Shown here piece by piece: positions 1,960-8,866 of a stretch of DNA of 64,000 nt (position 1 is the first letter of the stretch; every line of letters starts with the position of its first letter). The notes below the pieces were generated by a model. The model made no database searches. It was not told the DNA's origin and worked only from the letters and a program-made list of their open reading frames with translations. Where the stretch lies: NCBI GenBank assembly GCA_965662895.1, contig CBFIJH010000005.1:57928-121927 (forward strand), given 5' to 3'. A program made the position numbers and the translations under genes. This DNA comes from Candidatus Poseidoniaceae archaeon. GTDB taxonomy: Archaea; Thermoplasmatota; Poseidoniia; Poseidoniales; Poseidoniaceae.

Positions 1960-2432
1960 TGATGGATGCAAAGCGTATTTTTCAACCAAAAATATGGCTA
2001 CTCGTATTCGCTTTGGTCCATACTCTTGGGATGAGTGCTGATCTTCTACCGGTCCTAACGGATGACGAAGCTGCAGGTACACACTTAGGTAACACCGTCA
2101 ATGAATCGCTTGCCGATGATGAAAGTGCAATCGAGGCTTATCAAGGTGGCATGTCACAGGTGTATGGTATCGGATTGTCATGGACCATCATCATGGTTGG
2201 TGGTGCCTTCTGGACACGTGGGAAATCACAGGCCCAACTGAGCGTATTGTTCGGTGGTGGACTTTTTGTGACCGGCTTAACCTTGGGCATTATGGGTTCG
2301 ATGGTCGGTGACGGCTTCGACGCGTTTGCCTTTGTCATGACTACGCTCTTTGCGGCTCCGATCATCGCGAGTGGTGTTCTTCATCTTGAAGATGAGGCCG
2401 AAGAACCGTCCGCATCTCACGTTGATGCTTGA
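1956..2432 (+). CDS. Small membrane protein, MDAK-family paralog 3
   Basis: N-terminus MMMDAKRIFQPKIWL. ATGA overlap with the paralog 2 stop. Alternative starts at 1959 or 1962. Confidence 0.6.
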   Translation: MMMDAKRIFQPKIWLLVFALVHTLGMSADLLPVLTDDEAAGTHLGNTVNESLADDESAIEAYQGGMSQVYGIGLSWTIIMVGGAFWTRGKSQAQLSVLFGGGLFVTGLTLGIMGSMVGDGFDAFAFVMTTLFAAPIIASGVLHLEDEAEEPSASHVDA

Positions 2433-2449
2433 ACGAGTCTTGAACTCGA

Positions 2450-3706
2450 TCAACTGATTTTGAGTTCGAGAAAGCCAAATCCGCCGTTGTCGACCGCCAC
2501 CACGAGGTTGCCGTCTTTGTTGACACAGATGTCTTCACCGGCCCAATCTCCGCCTTCAGGTCCGTAGGTGGCTTCCCATTCCAACATACCTGTAGAATCA
2601 TACTTCAGCACGTAGACCCGCCATGCATCGGAACATTCCTCACCGTCGCATTTCGAGTAGCGCCAATATTCGTCACCCGTGCCCGCTACCACGACAACGC
2701 CACCATCCTCGAGCGCTTGCAAGCCCCAGACTTCGTCGTGAATGTATCGAGCATCAAAGCCTCGAGGGTTGCCGTTGGTAGCCTCCCAAAGCACCTCTCC
2801 TTGGGTATTCACTTTCACGGTATAGGTGTCCCAGTTTTCAGTTCCTGAAAGCGTGTGTCCGGAGAGATACATCAAGCCCTCAGAGGTCATGCCGAACGCA
2901 AAGTTGTGATCGGGCTCGCTGCCACCGTAGGTTTTGGCCCACTTCACTTCGCCCGTTATGTCTGCTCTCAGGAGGGCATAATCCTCAGCGCCTTCGGTTA
3001 GCCCGGACACGTACAGGTCTCCCTCATACATGGCAATACGATAAGCTTGAGCCATGTGGACTTGGAGTGATTTATCTGAAATTTGTTCGCCTGATGGTCC
3101 AAAGACCATCATGTGCCCTCGTCCTTCGGTGAAGAAGGTGTTCTCGTCGTCCTCCGCATTGGTGTAGCCAACAGCAACAAAGCCACTTGGAACCGCCACC
3201 AGGTGTTCAAGAGCATCGCTGCCTCCGTAATTGTAGGTCTTTAACCAAAAGCTCTCACCCGTGGTTTTGTTAAGTTTCATGATGCTACTGTCCTCGCCCA
3301 ACGCGCCGACAACAACGTAGCCGTCCGCAACCTCAATGGCGCTGTTGCCCAAATTGTGGCCTTTCGTACCGAATTCTTTCTTCCATTCAAGAACCCCTGT
3401 GGCATTCACCTTGACGACGAGAAGCTTTGCTCCGTTTGGGATGAAACCAGTCTCGCCGATTTGCAAGTAACCCCCGTCCTCACAAGCGAGAATGAAGTGG
3501 CCATGCGATTCTTCCTGCGAGCCACCGTAGGAAGTCATCCAACCAACCTCCGGTACGGTGCCGCTGTGTTCGTTTGAGGCGACAAGAAGGGGACCATCGC
3601 CTTCACCTTCTCCGAAGCATCCAGCGATTGAGGATATGAGCAGCACCAAACAGAATAAGGCAAAGCTACGATGATGCATGGATTTCATCCGTCTCTGCTC
3701 CTTCAT
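2450..3706 (-). CDS. Secreted lipoprotein with SBBP-type beta-propeller repeats
   Basis: Start moved to MKEQRRMKSMHHRSFALFCLVLLISSIAGC, a signal peptide plus lipobox Cys. At least 6 repeats of ~50 aa matching the YGGS...D.g..v....G.hYhhG.T pattern (e.g. TYNYGGSDALEHLVAVPSGFVAVGYT, KTYGGSEPDHNFAFGMTSEGLMYLSGHT). Confidence 0.65.
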   Translation of the reverse strand: MKEQRRMKSMHHRSFALFCLVLLISSIAGCFGEGEGDGPLLVASNEHSGTVPEVGWMTSYGGSQEESHGHFILACEDGGYLQIGETGFIPNGAKLLVVKVNATGVLEWKKEFGTKGHNLGNSAIEVADGYVVVGALGEDSSIMKLNKTTGESFWLKTYNYGGSDALEHLVAVPSGFVAVGYTNAEDDENTFFTEGRGHMMVFGPSGEQISDKSLQVHMAQAYRIAMYEGDLYVSGLTEGAEDYALLRADITGEVKWAKTYGGSEPDHNFAFGMTSEGLMYLSGHTLSGTENWDTYTVKVNTQGEVLWEATNGNPRGFDARYIHDEVWGLQALEDGGVVVVAGTGDEYWRYSKCDGEECSDAWRVYVLKYDSTGMLEWEATYGPEGGDWAGEDICVNKDGNLVVAVDNGGFGFLELKIS

Positions 3707-4808: not shown

Positions 4809-5882
4809 ATGAAACATCGGGTGCTGCTGGTTGGTCTCGTTGTTTTCTGCCTGGTTCAACCCATGGCCCATGCTGAAGATTCGTCCTACGAATGTACCGC
4901 AGGCGACTCGACCGAAGACCGAGTTGGTTGCCTCGACTCGGATGGAGATGGTTGGTCCGATCCAGATTCAAACTGGAACGAATCGATGGGTGCCGATGCG
5001 TTTCCAAACAATGCTTCTGAGCATCGAGATCTTGACGGAGACGGTCTAGGTGATGGCATCGATTCAGACATGGACGGCGATGGCTCCAACGATGATGTAG
5101 ATTTGTGGCCAGAAGATGCAGGCATTTGGTCAGATTCCGACGGAGATGGATACGCAGATCAAGGCTTGCATTCACTTTCTGACAATTGTCCATTCATCTA
5201 TGGAAAGAGCAAGATTCGTCTTATTGGGTGCTCCGACATTGATGGAGATTTCATGCCGGATGAATACGATGATGATGCAGACGGTGATGGAATTCGAAAT
5301 GAAATGGAACGTGCAGCATCCTCGGGAACAATCCTCTACGACCCCTACAATGCAGAATCAACCCCTCTCGATACGGACCGAGATACACTTCCCGATGTCC
5401 TCGATGATGACAACGATAACGATGGCTGGCCGGATGATGTCGAACTCGATCGTGGTTCTGGTATCTATGATGCTGATTCAACTCCGTTCAACATGTACAT
5501 GGGGGTGGAGACAGGATTCTTTTATCGCGGCGGTTTGAATGCAGACTCATTCACGAGCGAATACGATCCTGAGAGTTTCGAAATCTCTCTGTCTGCACTA
5601 AGTGAAATTGTGTTTGAGGAATTGGTGATACCTCTTCTTCTTGTTCCGATTTATTTTGCTGTCTTTTTCGCTCGACGTGGTGAATTCCGAAATTGTCTGA
5701 AGAAAATTGAGTCCGCTTCGACATCCAATGAACTCATTGAACTTGAGAAAATTGTCAATTCGATGGTAAAGGAAAAGAGAATCAAGGTTTATCATGGGCT
5801 TGTTTTGAGAAATGCATTGGAAGAAAAGGAATCCGAGTTTGGCTCTGAACCTCAATATGAAGCCAAATCAGAGGAAGAATAA
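4809..5882 (+). CDS. Cell-surface protein with thrombospondin-type-3-like acidic Ca-binding repeats and a C-terminal TM anchor
   Basis: Signal peptide MKHRVLLVGLVVFCLVQPMAHA. Repeated DSDGDGWSD, DLDGDGLGD and DSDMDGDGSNDD units. Single C-terminal helix LVIPLLLVPIYFAVFFA followed by an ~80-aa charged cytoplasmic tail. SD-like GAGG sits upstream. Confidence 0.7.
   Translation: MKHRVLLVGLVVFCLVQPMAHAEDSSYECTAGDSTEDRVGCLDSDGDGWSDPDSNWNESMGADAFPNNASEHRDLDGDGLGDGIDSDMDGDGSNDDVDLWPEDAGIWSDSDGDGYADQGLHSLSDNCPFIYGKSKIRLIGCSDIDGDFMPDEYDDDADGDGIRNEMERAASSGTILYDPYNAESTPLDTDRDTLPDVLDDDNDNDGWPDDVELDRGSGIYDADSTPFNMYMGVETGFFYRGGLNADSFTSEYDPESFEISLSALSEIVFEELVIPLLLVPIYFAVFFARRGEFRNCLKKIESASTSNELIELEKIVNSMVKEKRIKVYHGLVLRNALEEKESEFGSEPQYEAKSEEE
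4920..5450 (+). repeat. Intragenic tandem acidic D-x-D-x-D-G repeats (TSP3-like)
   Basis: Recurrent gatggagatgg / gacggtgatgg codon blocks. These also spawn spurious ORFs in the other frames. Confidence 0.55.
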
Positions 5883-5886
5883 TCCT

Positions 5887-6246
5887 TCATATCCAAACAT
5901 CGTTGGATGCGGTGAGATTGCTTTCAGCATCTCCAGTGTTGACAACACCTCGAGGTTCAATCAGCATAATTTTGCATTCTGCTTTTGCATAAGGGCGATG
6001 TCGTACACCCTTTGGAACAACGTACATTTCACCAGCATTCAACTCCATTGTTTCGGACTCAAATTCAATGAACAATGTCCCTTCAATGACGTAAAAGAAT
6101 TCATCCGTATCCGAGTGATTGTGCCAGACAAAATCACCCTCAACCTTGGCAATCTTGATTTGATAATCGTTCAATTCGCTGATGATTTTTGGTGTCCAGA
6201 GTTCATTGAACAAAGCAAATTTTTCATCCAAATTAATCTTCTTCAT
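5887..6246 (-). CDS. Cupin domain protein
   Basis: 119 aa. Two cupin motifs: VWHNHSDTDEFFYVIEGTLFIE and GEMYVVPKGVRHRP. Confidence 0.7.
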   Translation of the reverse strand: MKKINLDEKFALFNELWTPKIISELNDYQIKIAKVEGDFVWHNHSDTDEFFYVIEGTLFIEFESETMELNAGEMYVVPKGVRHRPYAKAECKIMLIEPRGVVNTGDAESNLTASNDVWI

Positions 6247-6387
6247 GTCATTATCTCGTACACTATACTATTGAAAAACTTTCCAGACTCGATTCAGATT
6301 CGACTCTCTTACATTTCTTTTCTTTGAGCCAATATTCATCCAACGATGTGGATTAAGTTAGAATACTGGGTGTGAATTACCCTCTAT

Positions 6388-6732
6388 ATGGAACGCAGGC
6401 GTCGAGACCTCTCCGTGACCATCTACCGTATCCTCTTGTACCTCTCCAGAATGCGAGAACGCGATGCTGAATCAAAGCGCTTGATGCGTATTGAACGGGC
6501 AACAGGTATTGAACGTAAGGAGTTGAAAATCCACCTTGAGAAACTCGTTGATGCGGGCTACGTCAAACAAATTGACTCAGATAAGAAAGGACGGGGAGGT
6601 CACCCTATTGTTACCTATGACATTTTAGAATCCGGCCGAAGTTTACGTAGTGACATAGGCCGATGGATCGATTTAGGGATTCGAATGAAATACTATCCAG
6701 ACAATTTTTTCTATCTTCCGAGTGATGCCTGA
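6388..6732 (+). CDS. Winged helix-turn-helix transcriptional regulator
   Basis: 114 aa. Pattern IYRILLYLS...LMRIERATGIERKELKIHLEKLVDAGYV fits the wHTH recognition helix plus wing (MarR/ArsR/PadR-like). Divergent from the cupin gene. Confidence 0.55.
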   Translation: MERRRRDLSVTIYRILLYLSRMRERDAESKRLMRIERATGIERKELKIHLEKLVDAGYVKQIDSDKKGRGGHPIVTYDILESGRSLRSDIGRWIDLGIRMKYYPDNFFYLPSDA

Positions 6733-6770
6733 TAGCGGGTAATTTAACCCCCTAAGAAAACCCTCCTTTG

Positions 6771-6777
6771 TTTATAT
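6771..6777 (+). promoter_or_regulatory. Archaeal TATA box (TTTATAT) centred about -26 from the ATG at 6800; implies a leaderless transcript
   Basis: tttatat at 6771-6777 with ATG at 6800. This spacing is the classic archaeal leaderless arrangement. Not experimentally supported. Confidence 0.4.
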
Positions 6778-6799
6778 CCATTAGGGCTATCCCAAAATC

Positions 6800-7075
6800 A
6801 TGTCCGGAAAGAAAGCCGTAGACAAGGTCAGCAAAGGACTCGGTTCCTTAATCGATGAATTTGCTTCAGCCGTCAAAGAGATGGTGAACGCTGGAGAAGA
6901 AACCGTTGTTCATCTAGCAGTTGGCTCAAGCCGAGTCATCAAGGCTGCCATCGATGCGACAGGTGAAGTGACTAAGATCACCGTAGAAACCGCTGGCAAC
7001 GTTGTCGGTTCGGTGGCACAAGGTGTGAAGAACGTCGTCGGTTCAAACGGGCAAAAAAAAGGTGAAGAAGAATGA
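6800..7075 (+). CDS. Small soluble Gly/Val/Ala-rich protein (91 aa), first gene of a 3-gene micro-operon
   Basis: ORF-track entry. Stop overlaps the next ATG (ATGA at 7072-7075). Confidence 0.55.
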   Translation: MSGKKAVDKVSKGLGSLIDEFASAVKEMVNAGEETVVHLAVGSSRVIKAAIDATGEVTKITVETAGNVVGSVAQGVKNVVGSNGQKKGEEE

Positions 7076-7251
7076 TAGGAAGATTGTTTGCAGCTACAAT
7101 TGTTGCAGGAACTGTTGGACTAATGGCTGGCGTTGCATCAAGCACATTCCGCCATTATTATCGAAAGCATGCTGAGTTTGAGGACCTAAAGAACGATTCC
7201 ATCCAGGAAGTCGTTGTCGTCACTGAATTCGTTGAAGGGGTGGAAGAATGA
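7072..7251 (+). CDS. Small single-TM protein (59 aa), absent from the ORF track
   Basis: Own translation: MIGRLFAATIVAGTVGLMAGVASSTFRHYYRKHAEFEDLKNDSIQEVVVVTEFVEGVEE. ATGA overlaps at both ends (7072-7075 and 7248-7251). Confidence 0.45.
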   Translation: MIGRLFAATIVAGTVGLMAGVASSTFRHYYRKHAEFEDLKNDSIQEVVVVTEFVEGVEE

Positions 7252-7421
7252 TTCCAGTTATTGTTGGTGGACTTGCAGTTGTCTCAGCAACGCTCAATGT
7301 TATGGCTGGAGCAGCAGCAATGGGCTCAGGATACGGAATCGGTCGCAAGTATGGTCGAAAGGTCTGTGAAGCTCTCGATGGCCTCGATTCAAACATGAAG
7401 AACATCCTCAAGAATGAATGA
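7248..7421 (+). CDS. Small membrane protein (57 aa), absent from the ORF track
   Basis: Own translation: MIPVIVGGLAVVSATLNVMAGAAAMGSGYGIGRKYGRKVCEALDGLDSNMKNILKNE. Coupled to the previous ORF. The antisense 63-aa ORF at 7220-7411 is rejected in favour of this one. Confidence 0.45.
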   Translation: MIPVIVGGLAVVSATLNVMAGAAAMGSGYGIGRKYGRKVCEALDGLDSNMKNILKNE

Positions 7422-7462
7422 GTTTAGCGATTTATTCATGAATCGTAGGGGGATGGGCAATT

Positions 7463-8275
7463 GTGTCTGACCCACTCCAAATCCCTTCCTTTCCGCCAGA
7501 AGGACCTTGGGAAATGTACGTTCTCGTACTGATCTGGTTACCATTTCTGTTCAGAACATTGTTGCTTACCAGACCATTGTATCGAGTCATCAAGAAATTC
7601 GCTCCTCATGGAGGGTGGGCTATTCGGCAACTACGCGAATTACCGATCAAAGGACTCTCAATTCTGGTTCTCAATGAATCTCTAGCATTTATGCTACCAC
7701 CATTGACTGTTATCCTCTTCAGATTGAGGTTTGATCCAATCGGTTGGGATACTTGGGGAGAAGCAGGTTTCCTTGGATTTCTTCTTCTCTTGATTTTCTT
7801 CTCATTGTGGATTGTTTTTGATGCATTTAGAATTTTTCGGGTTCGAAGAATGCTGATATCTGTTGATCGATACGATGTTGACAAATTGAAGAAAATCGCA
7901 GACGTAGGGATCAAAACTCGAAGATTTTTCAGGCGATTCTCAAGGAAAGAAACTGAGGATGGAGATGAAACAACGGCAGTTGATGCTGCCTCTCGAGTTG
8001 GTAAACGAAGCGCAAAGGTGTGGGGACTTCGTGTACTGAAGATGCGGAAATTGAGCCCTGCTGGATTGCTTAGTTCAGTAGCTGTTGGGGCAGCAATCGA
8101 GGCTGCAAGGGCAGGAGCAGGAAAAGTGTCTGATATCATCGATGAAAAAATGCAGGAAGAATTTGACAAAGTGGCAAAAACAAGCACAAAGTCACTCCTG
8201 ATTCTCTTCTTGAGAGATTTAGCGATGGCAGTATCCCCTTTGTTACTGTTCGCCGTTCTACCAATCATCCTTTGA
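7463..8275 (+). CDS. Hypothetical polytopic membrane protein
   Basis: 270 aa with 4 N-terminal TM helices, a charged central region and a C-terminal helix. The antisense 304-aa ORF is low-complexity Ser/Arg-rich and rejected. Confidence 0.6.
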   Translation: MSDPLQIPSFPPEGPWEMYVLVLIWLPFLFRTLLLTRPLYRVIKKFAPHGGWAIRQLRELPIKGLSILVLNESLAFMLPPLTVILFRLRFDPIGWDTWGEAGFLGFLLLLIFFSLWIVFDAFRIFRVRRMLISVDRYDVDKLKKIADVGIKTRRFFRRFSRKETEDGDETTAVDAASRVGKRSAKVWGLRVLKMRKLSPAGLLSSVAVGAAIEAARAGAGKVSDIIDEKMQEEFDKVAKTSTKSLLILFLRDLAMAVSPLLLFAVLPIIL

Positions 8276-8323
8276 CCGATGCACAATAGAAAGAACTTAG
8301 GAATCAGCGTCGCTGTATGAGTC

Positions 8324-8866
8324 ATGTCCCAACTGACAACGGGTGACCTGGCACCTACGCTTTCCTTACCAGCGATCGATGGCTCAACTTTCAACATGGC
8401 CGAAATGAAAGGAAAACGTGTTATTCTGACGTTTTTTAGGTTCTCATCGTGCCCATTGTGCAACATGCGCATTCGCCGCATTATCCAACGATGGGATGAG
8501 TTCTCTGAGGATACCGTCATGGTCGCAGTTTTTGATGCGAAGATCGGGGAACTTCAGAAACGAATGCGAAAGCACAATGCTCCTTTTGTTGTGGTTGCTG
8601 ATGAGACGTATGAGCATTTTCAAAACAACGGTGTCAAAAAGTCGTTTTTCAAATTCTTGTGGGGAGCGATGCGTTCGCCATTGACACTGCTGCAAGCTAC
8701 ATTGAGAGGCTATGTTCCGCTGACTCTATCCATCTCCAAGTTATCAACCATTCCTGTTGACATTCTTATCGATGAAGAAGGCACCGTCGTTGAGGCTCAT
8801 TATTGCAAGGACACTGCAGACCATCTTCCACTTGAGAAAATGATTGCTTTTTCCAACGGTGCGTAG
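8324..8866 (+). CDS. Redoxin/AhpC-TSA-like thioredoxin-fold protein
   Basis: FFRFSSCPLCNM CxxC motif following the beta-strand VILTFF. Length 180 aa. Confidence 0.55.
   Translation: MSQLTTGDLAPTLSLPAIDGSTFNMAEMKGKRVILTFFRFSSCPLCNMRIRRIIQRWDEFSEDTVMVAVFDAKIGELQKRMRKHNAPFVVVADETYEHFQNNGVKKSFFKFLWGAMRSPLTLLQATLRGYVPLTLSISKLSTIPVDILIDEEGTVVEAHYCKDTADHLPLEKMIAFSNGA

What the first reader, a model, noticed from the sequence alone, without database searches (positions are those of the whole stretch)
6760..7421. Leaderless micro-operon of three proteins under 100 aa; two genes missed by the ORF track
A TTTATAT box sits ~26 nt upstream of the ATG at 6800. This is followed by a 91-aa Gly/Val/Ala-rich soluble protein, a 59-aa single-TM protein and a 57-aa membrane protein. 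The three are joined by two ATGA stop/start overlaps (7072-7075 and 7248-7251). The two small genes fall below the 60-aa cutoff of the supplied track. The track instead reports an antisense ORF there. Coupled tiny membrane proteins downstream of a wHTH regulator are candidates for an uncharacterised stress or envelope module.
Basis: seen in the sequence. Interest (0 to 1): 0.55.

Follow-up and report, generated by a model that had tools for sequence, protein, structure and literature searches.

The report
Conserved small-protein operon of Poseidoniaceae
The three tiny genes are real and conserved, and they belong to a five-gene module (regulator, repeat protein, two mini membrane proteins, one larger membrane protein) found only in Marine Group IIa archaea; its function is unknown.

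Summary
ORFs 6800-7075 (g1, 91 aa), 7072-7251 (g2, 59 aa) and 7248-7421 (g3, 57 aa) are joined by two ATGA overlaps, and TTTATAT lies at -29..-23 of the first ATG.

The window is from a Candidatus Poseidoniaceae (Marine Group IIa) archaeon. In 42 related genome loci the order wHTH-g1-g2-g3-g4 is kept (g4 = 270-aa membrane protein, 7463-8275). g2 and g3 are intact in every locus that covers them. dN/dS is 0.08, 0.25 and 0.29 for g1, g2 and g3. The antisense 63-aa ORF collects stops in distant loci.

wHTH and g1 have TATA-like boxes at about -29 and no Shine-Dalgarno (SD) motif, which is the common geometry in this genome. g2 and g3 have SD-like motifs and no TATA. A GGT-N4-7-WACC inverted repeat lies upstream of g1 (42/42 loci) and of wHTH (26/42), a likely operator.

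g1 is an almost invariant protein with an 11-residue amphipathic repeat. g2 and g3 are single-pass membrane proteins with conserved motifs.

None of g1-g4 reaches a curated cut-off in Pfam or NCBIfam or gives a convincing PHROGs, PADLOC, PDB or fold match. Public pipelines already call all of them "hypothetical protein".

The function is inferred only: a regulated membrane-associated complex. This is a solid orphan module of moderate interest.

The parts
6358..6365 (+). TATA-like box (TTAGAATA) of the wHTH gene, at -30..-23 of its ATG
   Evidence: Scores 6/8 against the TATA consensus. A TATA-like box starts at -32..-27 in 35/39 distinct wHTH upstream regions, and 0/39 have an SD-like motif.
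6369..6381 (.). Inverted-repeat element GGTGTGAATTACC (GGT-N4-7-WACC) between the TATA box and the ATG of wHTH; putative auto-operator
   Evidence: Present at -20..-17 in 26/42 loci; 0.03 expected per region by chance. Protein binding is inferred, not shown.
6388..6732 (+). wHTH gene, 114 aa: small winged-helix-like regulator with a conserved C-terminal extension (RSDIGRWIDLGIRMKYYPDNFFYLPSD)
   Evidence: Weak hits to MarR_2, HTH_34, TrmB and HTH_5, all below cut-off, and to Lrs14, MreA and ORF80 in NCBIfam. Present in all 42 loci; intact 114-aa ORF in 41, with L042 frameshifted. Median dN/dS 0.03.
6735..6752 (.). Conserved element GCGGGTAATTTAACCCCC (contains GGT-N5-AACC) directly after the wHTH stop, at -65..-48 of the g1 ATG; putative operator or upstream activating site
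   Evidence: The GGT-N4-7-WACC motif starts at -63/-62 in 42/42 loci; 0.05 expected. In the distant locus L043 it is a perfect palindrome, GGGGGTTA-T-TAACCCCC.
6771..6777 (+). TATA box TTTATAT of the g1 operon, at -29..-23 of the ATG
   Evidence: Only occurrence in the 64-kb window. A TATA-like box sits at this fixed position in 41/41 distinct upstream regions. -29 is the modal TATA position for long ORFs in this window: 10/44 against 1.1 expected.
6800..7075 (+). g1: 91-aa soluble protein made of about seven 11-residue repeats (xVVKxxVxxxG) with amphipathic character; residues 11-72 are almost invariant across the family
   Evidence: 312 homologues, all from Poseidoniales-type sources. Invariant core. 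Median dN/dS 0.08, with 4-fold sites near saturation. Lag-11 self-similarity z = 4.2; hydrophobic moment peaks at 98 degrees. No TM segment.
7060..7065 (+). SD-like AGGTGA inside the last codons of g1, 6 nt before the g2 ATG
   Evidence: SD-like 4-mer at -17..-4 of g2 in 32/34 distinct upstream regions; TATA-like box in only 3/34.
7072..7251 (+). g2: 59-aa single-pass membrane protein. N-terminal TM, conserved juxtamembrane motif S-[TA]-F-[RK]-H-Y-Y-x-K, acidic tail
   Evidence: Intact ORF of 57-64 aa in all 35 loci that cover it. Median dN/dS 0.25. The segment after the TM has charge +3, so the tail is predicted cytoplasmic. The exact sequence is in public databases as hypothetical protein.
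7237..7243 (+). SD-like GGGGTGG (GAGGTGG in most relatives) inside the last codons of g2, 4 nt before the g3 ATG
   Evidence: SD-like motif in 29/32 distinct upstream regions. It explains the conserved V-E-E end of g2.
7248..7421 (+). g3: 57-aa single-pass membrane protein. M-I-P start, Gly/Ala-rich TM, motif G-Y-G-x-G-R-K-Y-G-R-K-x-C-x-x-x-D with an invariant Cys
   Evidence: Intact ORF of 57-62 aa in all 34 loci that cover it; ATGA overlap with g2 in nearly all. Median dN/dS 0.29. A profile search finds 352 proteins of 56-64 aa (best 120 listed), none with a Pfam domain; every named hit is Poseidoniales or Euryarchaeota.
7448..7457 (+). Conserved GGGGGATGGG (GGAG-N-ATGG in relatives) in the g3-g4 spacer; contains an out-of-frame ATG exactly 10 nt before the g4 start
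   Evidence: Alignment of the spacers of 26 loci. Its role is unknown; it may be a ribosome-binding region.
7463..8275 (+). g4: 270-aa polytopic membrane protein with a GTG start. TM segments about 17-38, 67-86, 97-127 and 244-270, and a helical cytoplasmic middle part
7220..7411 (-). Antisense 63-aa ORF reported by the ORF track; not a gene
   Evidence: The corresponding antisense frame carries 1-4 stop codons in most of the more distant loci, while the sense ORF stays intact. No family hit.

Best explanation
This is a five-gene module specific to Candidatus Poseidoniaceae (Marine Group IIa archaea).

Gene organisation (shown in silico):
- A small winged-helix regulator (6388-6732) has its own leaderless promoter.
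- 67 nt downstream, a strong TATA promoter drives an operon.
- Its first gene, g1, is translated leaderless.
- g2 and g3 are translated from SD-like sites by termination-reinitiation coupling at the ATGA overlaps.
- g4 follows after a 41-nt spacer without an oligo-T stretch.

Regulation (inferred): a GGT-N4-7-WACC inverted repeat lies between the TATA box and the ATG of the regulator gene, and again upstream of the g1 TATA box. The regulator probably binds both sites, repressing itself and controlling the operon.

Products:
- g1 is a cytoplasmic, nearly invariant protein with an 11-residue amphipathic repeat.
- g2 and g3 are single-pass membrane proteins, predicted N-out/C-in, with conserved cytoplasmic juxtamembrane motifs.
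- g4 is a polytopic membrane protein with a helical cytoplasmic domain.

Function (inferred, weakest step): the four products form one membrane complex. g1 is the peripheral component, recruited to or coating the cytoplasmic membrane face, and g2, g3 and g4 anchor it. That would make it a regulated membrane-maintenance or structural module. Its layout resembles Psp/Lia or Asp23-AmaP systems, but it is not homologous to them.
For: Genes are real:
- ORFs are intact in all loci that cover them.
- dN/dS is 0.03 to 0.29 for the five genes.
- 4-fold sites in g1 are near saturation while the protein stays invariant.
- The exact sequences are present in public gene calls.

The five genes form one module:
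- The order wHTH-g1-g2-g3-g4 occurs in essentially all of the 42 loci, and also in a more distant lineage, L043.
- The flanking genes (cupin, peroxiredoxin) are shared only with the closest relatives. Nucleotide similarity to L001 begins at 6349, at the wHTH promoter.

Transcription and translation signals:
- TATA-like box at about -29 with no SD motif for wHTH (35/39 and 0/39) and for g1 (41/41 and 1/41).
- SD-like motif with no TATA box for g2 (32/34 and 3/34) and g3 (29/32 and 5/32).
- -29 is the modal TATA position in this window.
- No oligo-T run lies between 6711 and 7815.

Operator: the motif occurs in 42/42 g1 upstream regions and 26/42 wHTH upstream regions, against 0.03-0.05 expected. 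The sequences of the two sites change together in L043.

Protein features:
- 11-residue periodicity with z = 4.2 and a hydrophobic moment peak at 98 degrees.
- TM segments and charge distribution consistent with the positive-inside rule.
Against: - There is no transcript, TSS or protein evidence. Leaderless status and co-transcription rest on motif geometry only.
- No physical interaction was tested.
- g1 stays invariant while g2, g3 and g4 diverge to 33-50% identity. That fits self-assembly or binding to a lipid or another conserved partner at least as well as binding to g2-g4.
- The AF2 model of g1 has low confidence (pLDDT 50.8) and predicts strands for residues 60-72. The all-helical amphipathic reading is therefore not secure.
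- g4 has a TATA-like box in 11/26 spacers, including this window, and may have its own promoter.
- The operator motif is missing upstream of wHTH in 16/42 loci.
- Nothing links the module to stress.
Confidence: 0.5

Rival explanations
1. g1 works on its own as a self-assembling or lipid-surface-coating protein. It would be an 11-residue-repeat amphipathic helix like alpha-synuclein or perilipin-4, or a hydrophilin of the LEA type. g2-g4 would be a separate membrane function that only shares the promoter.
For: - 11-residue periodicity and a small-residue hydrophobic face.
- Low AF2 confidence, typical of conditionally folded proteins.
- Extreme conservation of g1 next to fast-evolving g2, g3 and g4.
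- Weakly hydrophobic 11-mer helices are known to coat lipid droplets (PMC5889406, PMC8064757; abstracts listed).
Against: - Gene order and the tight g1/g2 junction (-4 to +5 nt) are kept in nearly all loci, which argues for functional linkage.
- There is no sequence membership in the Synuclein, LEA_4 or Perilipin families.
Confidence: 0.25
2. The cluster is a remnant of a virus or mobile element, for example a lysis or holin-like cassette or a tail-related gene set with its own repressor.
For: - JGI labels some g1 homologues "phage-related protein".
- The best PDB profile hit is a phage tape measure protein, E 0.0056.
- The flanks are variable. A serine recombinase and an HsdS-like gene lie next to the cluster in L037.
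- Small single-TM proteins with charged tails resemble holins.
Against: - No g1 relative was found on IMG/VR viral contigs.
- PHROGs gives only weak hits (E 0.014-0.085) and PADLOC gives none for g1-g4.
- No structural or replication genes lie nearby.
- There is one copy per contig. The two contigs of MAG NAT68 are 98% identical strain variants.
- Divergence of the five genes tracks across clades as expected for vertical descent, and all are under purifying selection.
- The tape measure match covers only a 65-residue helical repeat stretch of an 1154-aa protein.
Confidence: 0.07
3. g2 and g3 are not genes. The small ORFs are chance frames, and the antisense 63-aa ORF or a non-coding RNA is the real feature.
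For: Both ORFs are under 60 aa. An antisense ORF of 63 aa exists at 7220-7411.
Against: - The sense ORFs are intact with conserved motifs in 34-35 loci.
- dN/dS is 0.25-0.29.
- The antisense frame has 1-4 stops in most distant loci.
- No Rfam match reaches a gathering score; the only listing is a 15-bit 5.8S match at E 0.54.
- A profile of g3 retrieves 352 proteins of the same length.
Confidence: 0.02

Closest known systems
Phage-shock-protein system (E. coli pspF / pspABCD) and the related LiaIH module
   Same: The layout is the same: an adjacent dedicated regulator, then a soluble helical protein, then two very small single-pass membrane proteins, then a further membrane-associated protein. 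The idea that a peripheral helical protein is recruited to the membrane by small bitopic partners is also shared. This comparison rests on established knowledge of Psp, not on a test made here.
   Different: - No sequence relation: Pfam and NCBIfam list no PspA, PspB or PspC model for g1-g3.
- g1 is 91 aa, against about 220 aa for PspA, and shows no ESCRT-III-like model.
- The regulator is a small wHTH, not a sigma-54 enhancer-binding protein.
- The organism is an archaeon with leaderless transcription.
11-residue-repeat amphipathic helices (alpha-synuclein; perilipin 11-mer and 33-mer repeats; LEA group 3; chlorosome CsmC)
   Same: - 11-residue periodicity with a hydrophobic moment peak near 98 degrees, that is an 11/3 helix.
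- Composition rich in V, T, G, A, K and E, with only one aromatic residue.
- Low-confidence structure prediction.
- Weakly hydrophobic helices of this kind bind membranes or lipid droplets (PMC5889406, PMC8064757).
   Different: - No homology: BLASTP against alpha-synuclein gives E 0.14.
- CsmC scores 12.4 bits against a cut-off of 26.3.
- No LEA_4, Perilipin or Synuclein Pfam hit.
- g1 has only about seven repeats.
- g1 is encoded with membrane partners.
- Membrane or lipid binding is untested.
Asp23 / AmaP / DUF2273 operon of Firmicutes
   Same: An abundant small soluble protein is encoded together with small membrane proteins that anchor it to the membrane. This comparison is from established knowledge and was not tested here.
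   Different: No Asp23 (DUF322) or AmaP family hit. The domain of life and the regulator are different.
Phage tape measure proteins (e.g. 80alpha gp57, PDB 6v8i)
   Same: This is the best sequence-profile match in the PDB: E 0.0056 over residues 6-70 of g1 against residues 975-1039 of the chain. Both are helical repeat sequences with small residues. The match explains the JGI label "phage-related protein".
   Different: - The match is 65 residues of an 1154-aa protein, with a borderline E-value.
- There is no viral context.
- No tape-measure PHROG hit; g1's only PHROG hit is phrog_25510, of unknown function, at E 0.044.
- g1 is a 91-aa stand-alone protein conserved in cellular genomes.

Membership tests
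Archaeal leaderless transcript | TATA box about 25-30 nt upstream of the start codon, so that the TSS falls at or within a few nt of the ATG; no SD motif | tested here: met
   TTTATAT at -29..-23. The position is kept in 41/41 distinct upstream regions, and 1/41 has an SD-like motif. This is the same geometry as the modal class of genes in the window.
Archaeal leaderless transcript | Mapped 5' end at the start codon | not testable with these tools
   No transcript data are available. It needs dRNA-seq or Cappable-seq on MGIIa-rich samples.
Translationally coupled operon | Stop/start overlap or a gap of a few nt, with an internal ribosome-binding motif, conserved in relatives | tested here: met
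   The g2/g3 ATGA overlap is kept in nearly all loci. The g1/g2 junction is -4 or +2..+5 nt in all but L030 and L031, where an extra ORF widens it to 385 nt. SD-like motifs occur in 32/34 (g2) and 29/32 (g3) upstream regions.
MarR / winged-helix regulators (for the 114-aa ORF) | Score above the Pfam gathering threshold for a wHTH family | tested here: inconclusive
   MarR_2 scores 20.7 bits against a cut-off of 27. HTH_34, TrmB and HTH_5 are also below cut-off. Lrs14, MreA and ORF80 hits are weak. There is no solved close relative. Several independent wHTH models hit the same residues (about 7-70), so the fold assignment is likely but the family is not defined.
PspA/IM30 (Psp system) | PspA_IM30 domain in the soluble protein; PspB and PspC families for the small TM proteins | tested here: not met
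   No such Pfam or NCBIfam hit at E up to 1 for g1, g2 or g3, nor for any of 19-26 family members scanned.
Synuclein / LEA_4 / Perilipin 11-mer repeat families | 11-residue amphipathic periodicity | tested here: met
   Lag-11 BLOSUM self-score z = 4.2, with lags 22 and 33 also positive. The hydrophobic moment is highest at 98.2 degrees.
Synuclein / LEA_4 / Perilipin 11-mer repeat families | Sequence membership (Pfam model or significant pairwise similarity) | tested here: not met
   No Pfam hit. BLASTP against human alpha-synuclein gives E 0.14. An HMM search of 1.84 billion representatives finds only g1's own family, plus two NHL-repeat proteins (P0267, P0268) judged spurious.
Chlorosome envelope protein CsmC (PF11098) | Score above the gathering threshold | tested here: not met
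   12.4 bits against a cut-off of 26.3, E 0.17.
Phage tape measure protein / phage-related protein | Long (several hundred aa or more) helical protein in a tail gene cluster; viral context | tested here: not met
   There is only a 65-residue borderline match. g1 is 91 aa. No tape-measure PHROG hit. No relatives on IMG/VR contigs. No tail genes nearby.
Holins / lysis cassette | Membership in a holin family, with an adjacent endolysin | tested here: not met
   No holin hit in PHROGs or Pfam for g2 or g3. No lysin gene in the cluster.
Known anti-phage defence systems | Match to a PADLOC model | tested here: not met
   No hits for g1-g4. The regulator gives only weak wHTH-type hits (Csa3, E 0.0085).

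The most novel reading that the evidence does not exclude
g1 is an abundant archaeal counterpart, by convergence, of eukaryotic 11-mer amphipathic coat proteins of the synuclein or perilipin type. g2, g3 and g4 tether it to the membrane, and a dedicated wHTH regulator switches it on. It would coat or remodel the cytoplasmic membrane face, or a lipid surface. That would make the module a previously unrecognised, lineage-specific membrane-maintenance system in one of the most abundant archaeal groups of the surface ocean.
Probability: 0.12. Interest if true: 0.7.

Novelty: new variant of a known kind. Interest (0 to 1): 0.4.

Why it matters
Marine Group II archaea are abundant in surface oceans, remain uncultivated, and are known almost only from metagenome annotation. 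This module is retained across Poseidoniaceae. Its first protein is nearly invariant over residues 11-72, while the neighbouring genes drop to about 50% identity. It also has the only perfect TTTATAT box in 64 kb. None of g1-g4 belongs to a described family.

The module gives a compact test case of about 2 kb for three things in this lineage:
- archaeal small-protein biology;
- the combination of leaderless and coupled translation;
- a simple regulator-operator pair.

If g1 proves to be a membrane- or lipid-binding 11-mer repeat protein, it would be a prokaryotic analogue of synuclein- or perilipin-type helices. If not, it remains a well-defined conserved hypothetical operon.

Tried and rejected
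- **Family searches.** Pfam, NCBIfam, PHROGs and PADLOC scans of all five proteins, and Pfam scans of 19-26 family members each, gave nothing above cut-off for g1-g4.
- **Remote homology of g1.** A profile search against 1.84 billion representatives found only g1's own family, plus two NHL-repeat proteins that I judge spurious. A PDB profile search gave only a borderline tape measure match.
- **Structure of g1.** The AF2 model has pLDDT 50.8, too poor for a fold search.
- **g1 against the cytoplasmic region of g4.** hhalign gives probability 0.1%, so the idea that g4 carries a g1-like domain is rejected.
- **g1 against alpha-synuclein.** BLASTP gives E 0.14, so homology is rejected and only the physico-chemical analogy is kept.
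- **Codon bias as the cause of g1's low synonymous divergence.** ENC is 51.6, which is average. Rejected.
- **RNA element.** No Rfam match reaches a gathering score in 6200-8400.
- **Longer 6-nt inverted repeats flanking the g1 promoter** (GATAGC/GCTATC, CCCTAA/TTAGGG). They are near chance level and not conserved in other clades by inspection. Dropped.
- **Repeat or multi-copy element as the cause of contig breaks.** The two NAT68 contigs are 98% identical strain variants over their whole length. Rejected.
- **Viral origin.** No relative on IMG/VR contigs.
- **Literature.** No paper combines Poseidoniales with leaderless transcription. The Sapelo Island MGII metatranscriptome paper and its supplements did not let me identify this gene.
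Full report
**1. The observation**

- Three ATG-initiated ORFs lie on the + strand: 6800-7075 (g1, 91 aa), 7072-7251 (g2, 59 aa) and 7248-7421 (g3, 57 aa).
- They are linked by ATGA overlaps at 7072-7075 and 7248-7251.
- TTTATAT lies at 6771-6777, that is -29..-23 of the first ATG. It is the only copy of that heptamer on either strand of the 64-kb window.
- g1 is 42% Gly+Val+Ala, has one aromatic residue and has no hydrophobic segment.
- g2 and g3 each have one N-terminal TM-like segment, followed by a positively charged stretch: FRHYYRKHA (+3) in g2 and RKYGRKV (+4) in g3. This predicts N-out/C-in topology.
- The antisense ORF exists at 7220-7411 (-), 63 aa.
- The upstream 114-aa ORF (6388-6732) hits several winged-helix models at the same residues, all below the curated cut-offs.

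**2. Origin and conservation**

g1 has 312 database homologues. The named ones are Candidatus Poseidonia, Poseidoniaceae or Poseidoniales, or older "Euryarchaeota archaeon" labels. The window therefore comes from a Marine Group IIa archaeon.

A scan of one genome per GTDB species returned 42 loci. tblastn of the window proteins against them shows the order wHTH-g1-g2-g3-g4 in essentially all loci long enough to show it. g4 is the 270-aa membrane protein at 7463-8275.

Identity to the window proteins:

| Protein | Identity |
|---|---|
| g1 | 77-100% |
| wHTH | 65-96% |
| g4 | 48-90% |
| g2 | 35-93% |
| g3 | 33-75% |

The flanks are not conserved. The cupin upstream appears in two loci and the peroxiredoxin downstream in the five closest. 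Nucleotide similarity to L001 begins at 6349, at the wHTH promoter.

A more distant lineage (L043, g1 102 aa) has the same order with one extra 52-aa TM ORF. The conserved unit is therefore five genes, not three.

**3. Are g2 and g3 genes?**

Yes.
- Every locus that covers them has intact ORFs of 57-64 aa (g2) and 57-62 aa (g3).
- The g2/g3 junction is an ATGA overlap in nearly all loci. The g1/g2 junction is -4 or +2..+5 nt.
- The alignments show conserved motifs:
  - g2: TM, then S-[TA]-F-[RK]-H-Y-Y-x-K ... [IV]-Q-E-V.
  - g3: M-I-P, a Gly/Ala-rich TM, then G-Y-G-x-G-R-K-Y-G-R-K-x-C-x-x-x-D with an invariant Cys.
- Median pairwise dN/dS is 0.03 for wHTH, 0.08 for g1, 0.25 for g2, 0.29 for g3 and 0.06 for g4.
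- The antisense frame of the 63-aa ORF carries 1-4 stops in most distant loci.
- A profile of g3 retrieves 352 proteins of 56-64 aa.

The exact window sequences of all five proteins are already in public collections as "hypothetical protein". JGI occasionally labels g1 "phage-related protein" or "ribosomal protein S5". "Missed by the ORF track" is thus only the 60-aa cut-off.

**4. Expression signals**

| Gene | TATA-like box starting at -32..-27 | SD-like 4-mer at -17..-4 |
|---|---|---|
| wHTH | 35/39 | 0/39 |
| g1 | 41/41 | 1/41 |
| g2 | 3/34 | 32/34 |
| g3 | 5/32 | 29/32 |
| g4 | 11/26 | 11/26 |

Counts are over distinct upstream regions of the related loci.

- The SD-like motifs of g2 and g3 (AGGTGA, and GAGGTGG in most relatives) lie in the last codons of the preceding gene.
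- In the window as a whole, TATA-like 8-mers peak at -29 from the first in-frame ATG of long ORFs: 10 of 44 against 1.1 expected. Leaderless geometry is therefore the norm for this organism, and g1 simply has a very good example of it.
- g4 is ambiguous, as the table shows. It always starts with GTG and is preceded by a conserved GGAG-N-ATGG.
- No run of five or more T lies between 6711 and 7815 on the + strand, so nothing resembling an archaeal terminator separates g1 from g4.
- Actual 5' ends are not known.

**5. A shared cis-element**

The wHTH-g1 spacer is 67-70 nt long in every locus with an intact wHTH ORF, and its first part is conserved: GCGGGTAATTTAACCCCC in the window.
- The pattern GGT-N4-7-WACC starts at -63/-62 of the g1 ATG in 42/42 loci.
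- It starts at -20..-17 of the wHTH ATG in 26/42 loci.
- The background expectation is 0.03-0.05 per region.
- In L043 both sites take the form TAGGGGG...CCCCCTA, so the two sites change together.

By position, the site in the wHTH promoter lies between the TATA box and the start, the usual place for a repressor site. The site upstream of g1 lies before the TATA box, the usual place for an activator site. That the regulator binds these sites is an inference.

**6. The proteins**

*g1*
- It consists of about seven 11-residue units: SAVKEMVNAGE / ETVVHLAVGSS / RVIKAAIDATG / EVTKITVETAG / NVVGSVAQGVK / NVVGSNGQKKG.
- Self-similarity at lag 11 has z = 4.2, and the hydrophobic moment peaks at 98 degrees. 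This is the signature of an 11/3 amphipathic helix or a hendecad coiled coil.
- Residues 11-72 are almost invariant in 26 diverse homologues. Third positions of invariant 4-fold codons still carry 1.53 bits of entropy, so the constraint acts on the protein.
- AF2 gives a low-confidence model (pLDDT 50.8), helical at the N-terminus and partly strand at 60-72.
- A profile search of 1.84 billion representative proteins finds only g1's own family, plus two NHL-repeat proteins that I judge spurious.
- The best PDB match is a 65-residue stretch of a phage tape measure protein, E 0.0056. This probably explains the JGI label.
- No relative lies on IMG/VR viral contigs.

*g4*
- It has about four or five TM segments and a helical cytoplasmic middle part.
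- Its 224 homologues have no Pfam domain.

*Other searches*
- hhalign finds no relation between g1 and g4.
- PHROGs gives only weak hits (E 0.014-0.085) and PADLOC gives none for g1-g4.

**7. How it most likely works**

Shown in silico:
- five real, co-inherited genes;
- two promoters with leaderless geometry;
- SD-dependent, overlapped starts for g2 and g3;
- a shared inverted repeat in both promoters.

Inferred:
- The wHTH protein binds the repeat, autoregulates, and controls the operon.
- Coupling sets the stoichiometry of g1, g2 and g3.
- The four products act together at the cytoplasmic face of the membrane, with g1 as the peripheral amphipathic component and g2, g3 and g4 as its membrane partners.

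The layout recalls pspF/pspABCD, LiaIH or Asp23-AmaP, and g1 recalls synuclein- or perilipin-type 11-mer helices (PMC5889406, PMC8064757). Every membership test for these families failed, so these are analogies only.

The main rival is that g1 self-assembles or binds lipid on its own. This would fit its invariance next to fast-evolving g2-g4. Viral origin and the "not genes" reading are contradicted by the data above.

**8. Novelty and verdict**

The genes are already in databases as hypothetical proteins, and their organisation follows ordinary archaeal rules. Newly established here:
- they form a five-gene module restricted to Poseidoniaceae;
- the module has a candidate operator;
- its first product is an unusually conserved 11-residue-repeat protein;
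- none of g1-g4 has a detectable relative outside the lineage.

The function remains unknown. The "stress or envelope" label is a reasonable guess without direct support. Interest is moderate (0.4).

Noticed in passing
window 7448-7465 (and the g3-g4 spacers of L001-L038): g4 starts with GTG in every locus examined. An out-of-frame ATG sits exactly 10 nt upstream, inside a conserved GGAG-N-ATGG motif. It opens a mini-ORF of 2-6 codons that ends at or over the GTG. This may be a reinitiation device or part of the ribosome-binding site.
   Followed up: partly
L037 3409-3552 and L038 244-387, directly upstream of the wHTH promoter: A fragment of about 54 codons resembles the 5' end of another clade's g4 (MAASPLQLPAFPPAGPWEAYV...). 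It ends at the wHTH TATA box. In L037 it lies next to a serine recombinase (2355-3290, -) and an HsdS-like specificity gene (1111-2358). This looks like the scar of a recombination or island insertion at the left border of the module.
   Followed up: partly
L031 2689-3081; L030 (same position); L021 1221-2852; L031 3499-5132; L043 1323-1481: The module has lineage-specific additions. L030 and L031 have a 385-nt insertion between g1 and g2, read in L031 as an extra 130-aa ORF. L021 and L031 have two divergent g4-like paralogues (287-288 aa and 253-256 aa) instead of one g4. L043 has an extra 52-aa TM ORF between g3 and the g4-like gene.
   Followed up: partly
window 6800-7075 versus 6388-6732 and 7248-8275, compared with L001-L038: Between close relatives the synonymous difference in g1 (pS 0.1-0.35) is mostly 2-4 times lower than in wHTH, g3 and g4 of the same genome pairs (0.55-0.8). 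g1 has no codon bias (ENC 51.6), and its 4-fold sites are near saturation family-wide. Possible causes are recombination between strains or an RNA-level constraint. Unexplained.
   Followed up: partly
L002-L042 contig ends: Many MAG contigs stop within about 0.5 kb upstream of wHTH, inside g1, or shortly after g4. This fits assembly breaks where a highly conserved segment meets strain-variable flanks. The two contigs of MAG NAT68 (L001, L002) are 98% identical over 5.6 kb, so they are strain variants and not a repeat.
   Followed up: partly
window, all long ORFs: TATA-like 8-mers peak sharply at -29 from the first in-frame ATG: 10 of 44 long ORFs against 1.1 expected. This indicates that leaderless mRNAs are common in this Poseidoniaceae genome. 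I found no paper that combines Poseidoniales with leaderless transcription.
   Followed up: partly
window 4809-5882 (+): A 357-aa protein with an N-terminal signal-like segment, many Asp-rich DxDxDG repeats (thrombospondin type 3-like calcium-binding motifs) and a C-terminal TM segment. It has no significant Pfam hit.
   Followed up: no
window 6705-6710: The only T6 run near the module lies inside the last codons of wHTH (AAT TTT TTC, encoding the conserved N-F-F), 22 nt before its stop. If it acted as an archaeal terminator signal it would do so before the end of the coding sequence.
   Followed up: no
window 6388 versus 6451: Public gene calls for the regulator split between 114 aa and 93 aa, the latter starting at the internal Met (MRERD...). 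The conserved TATA-like box at about -30 of the 114-aa start, and conservation of residues 1-21, favour the longer form.
   Followed up: partly
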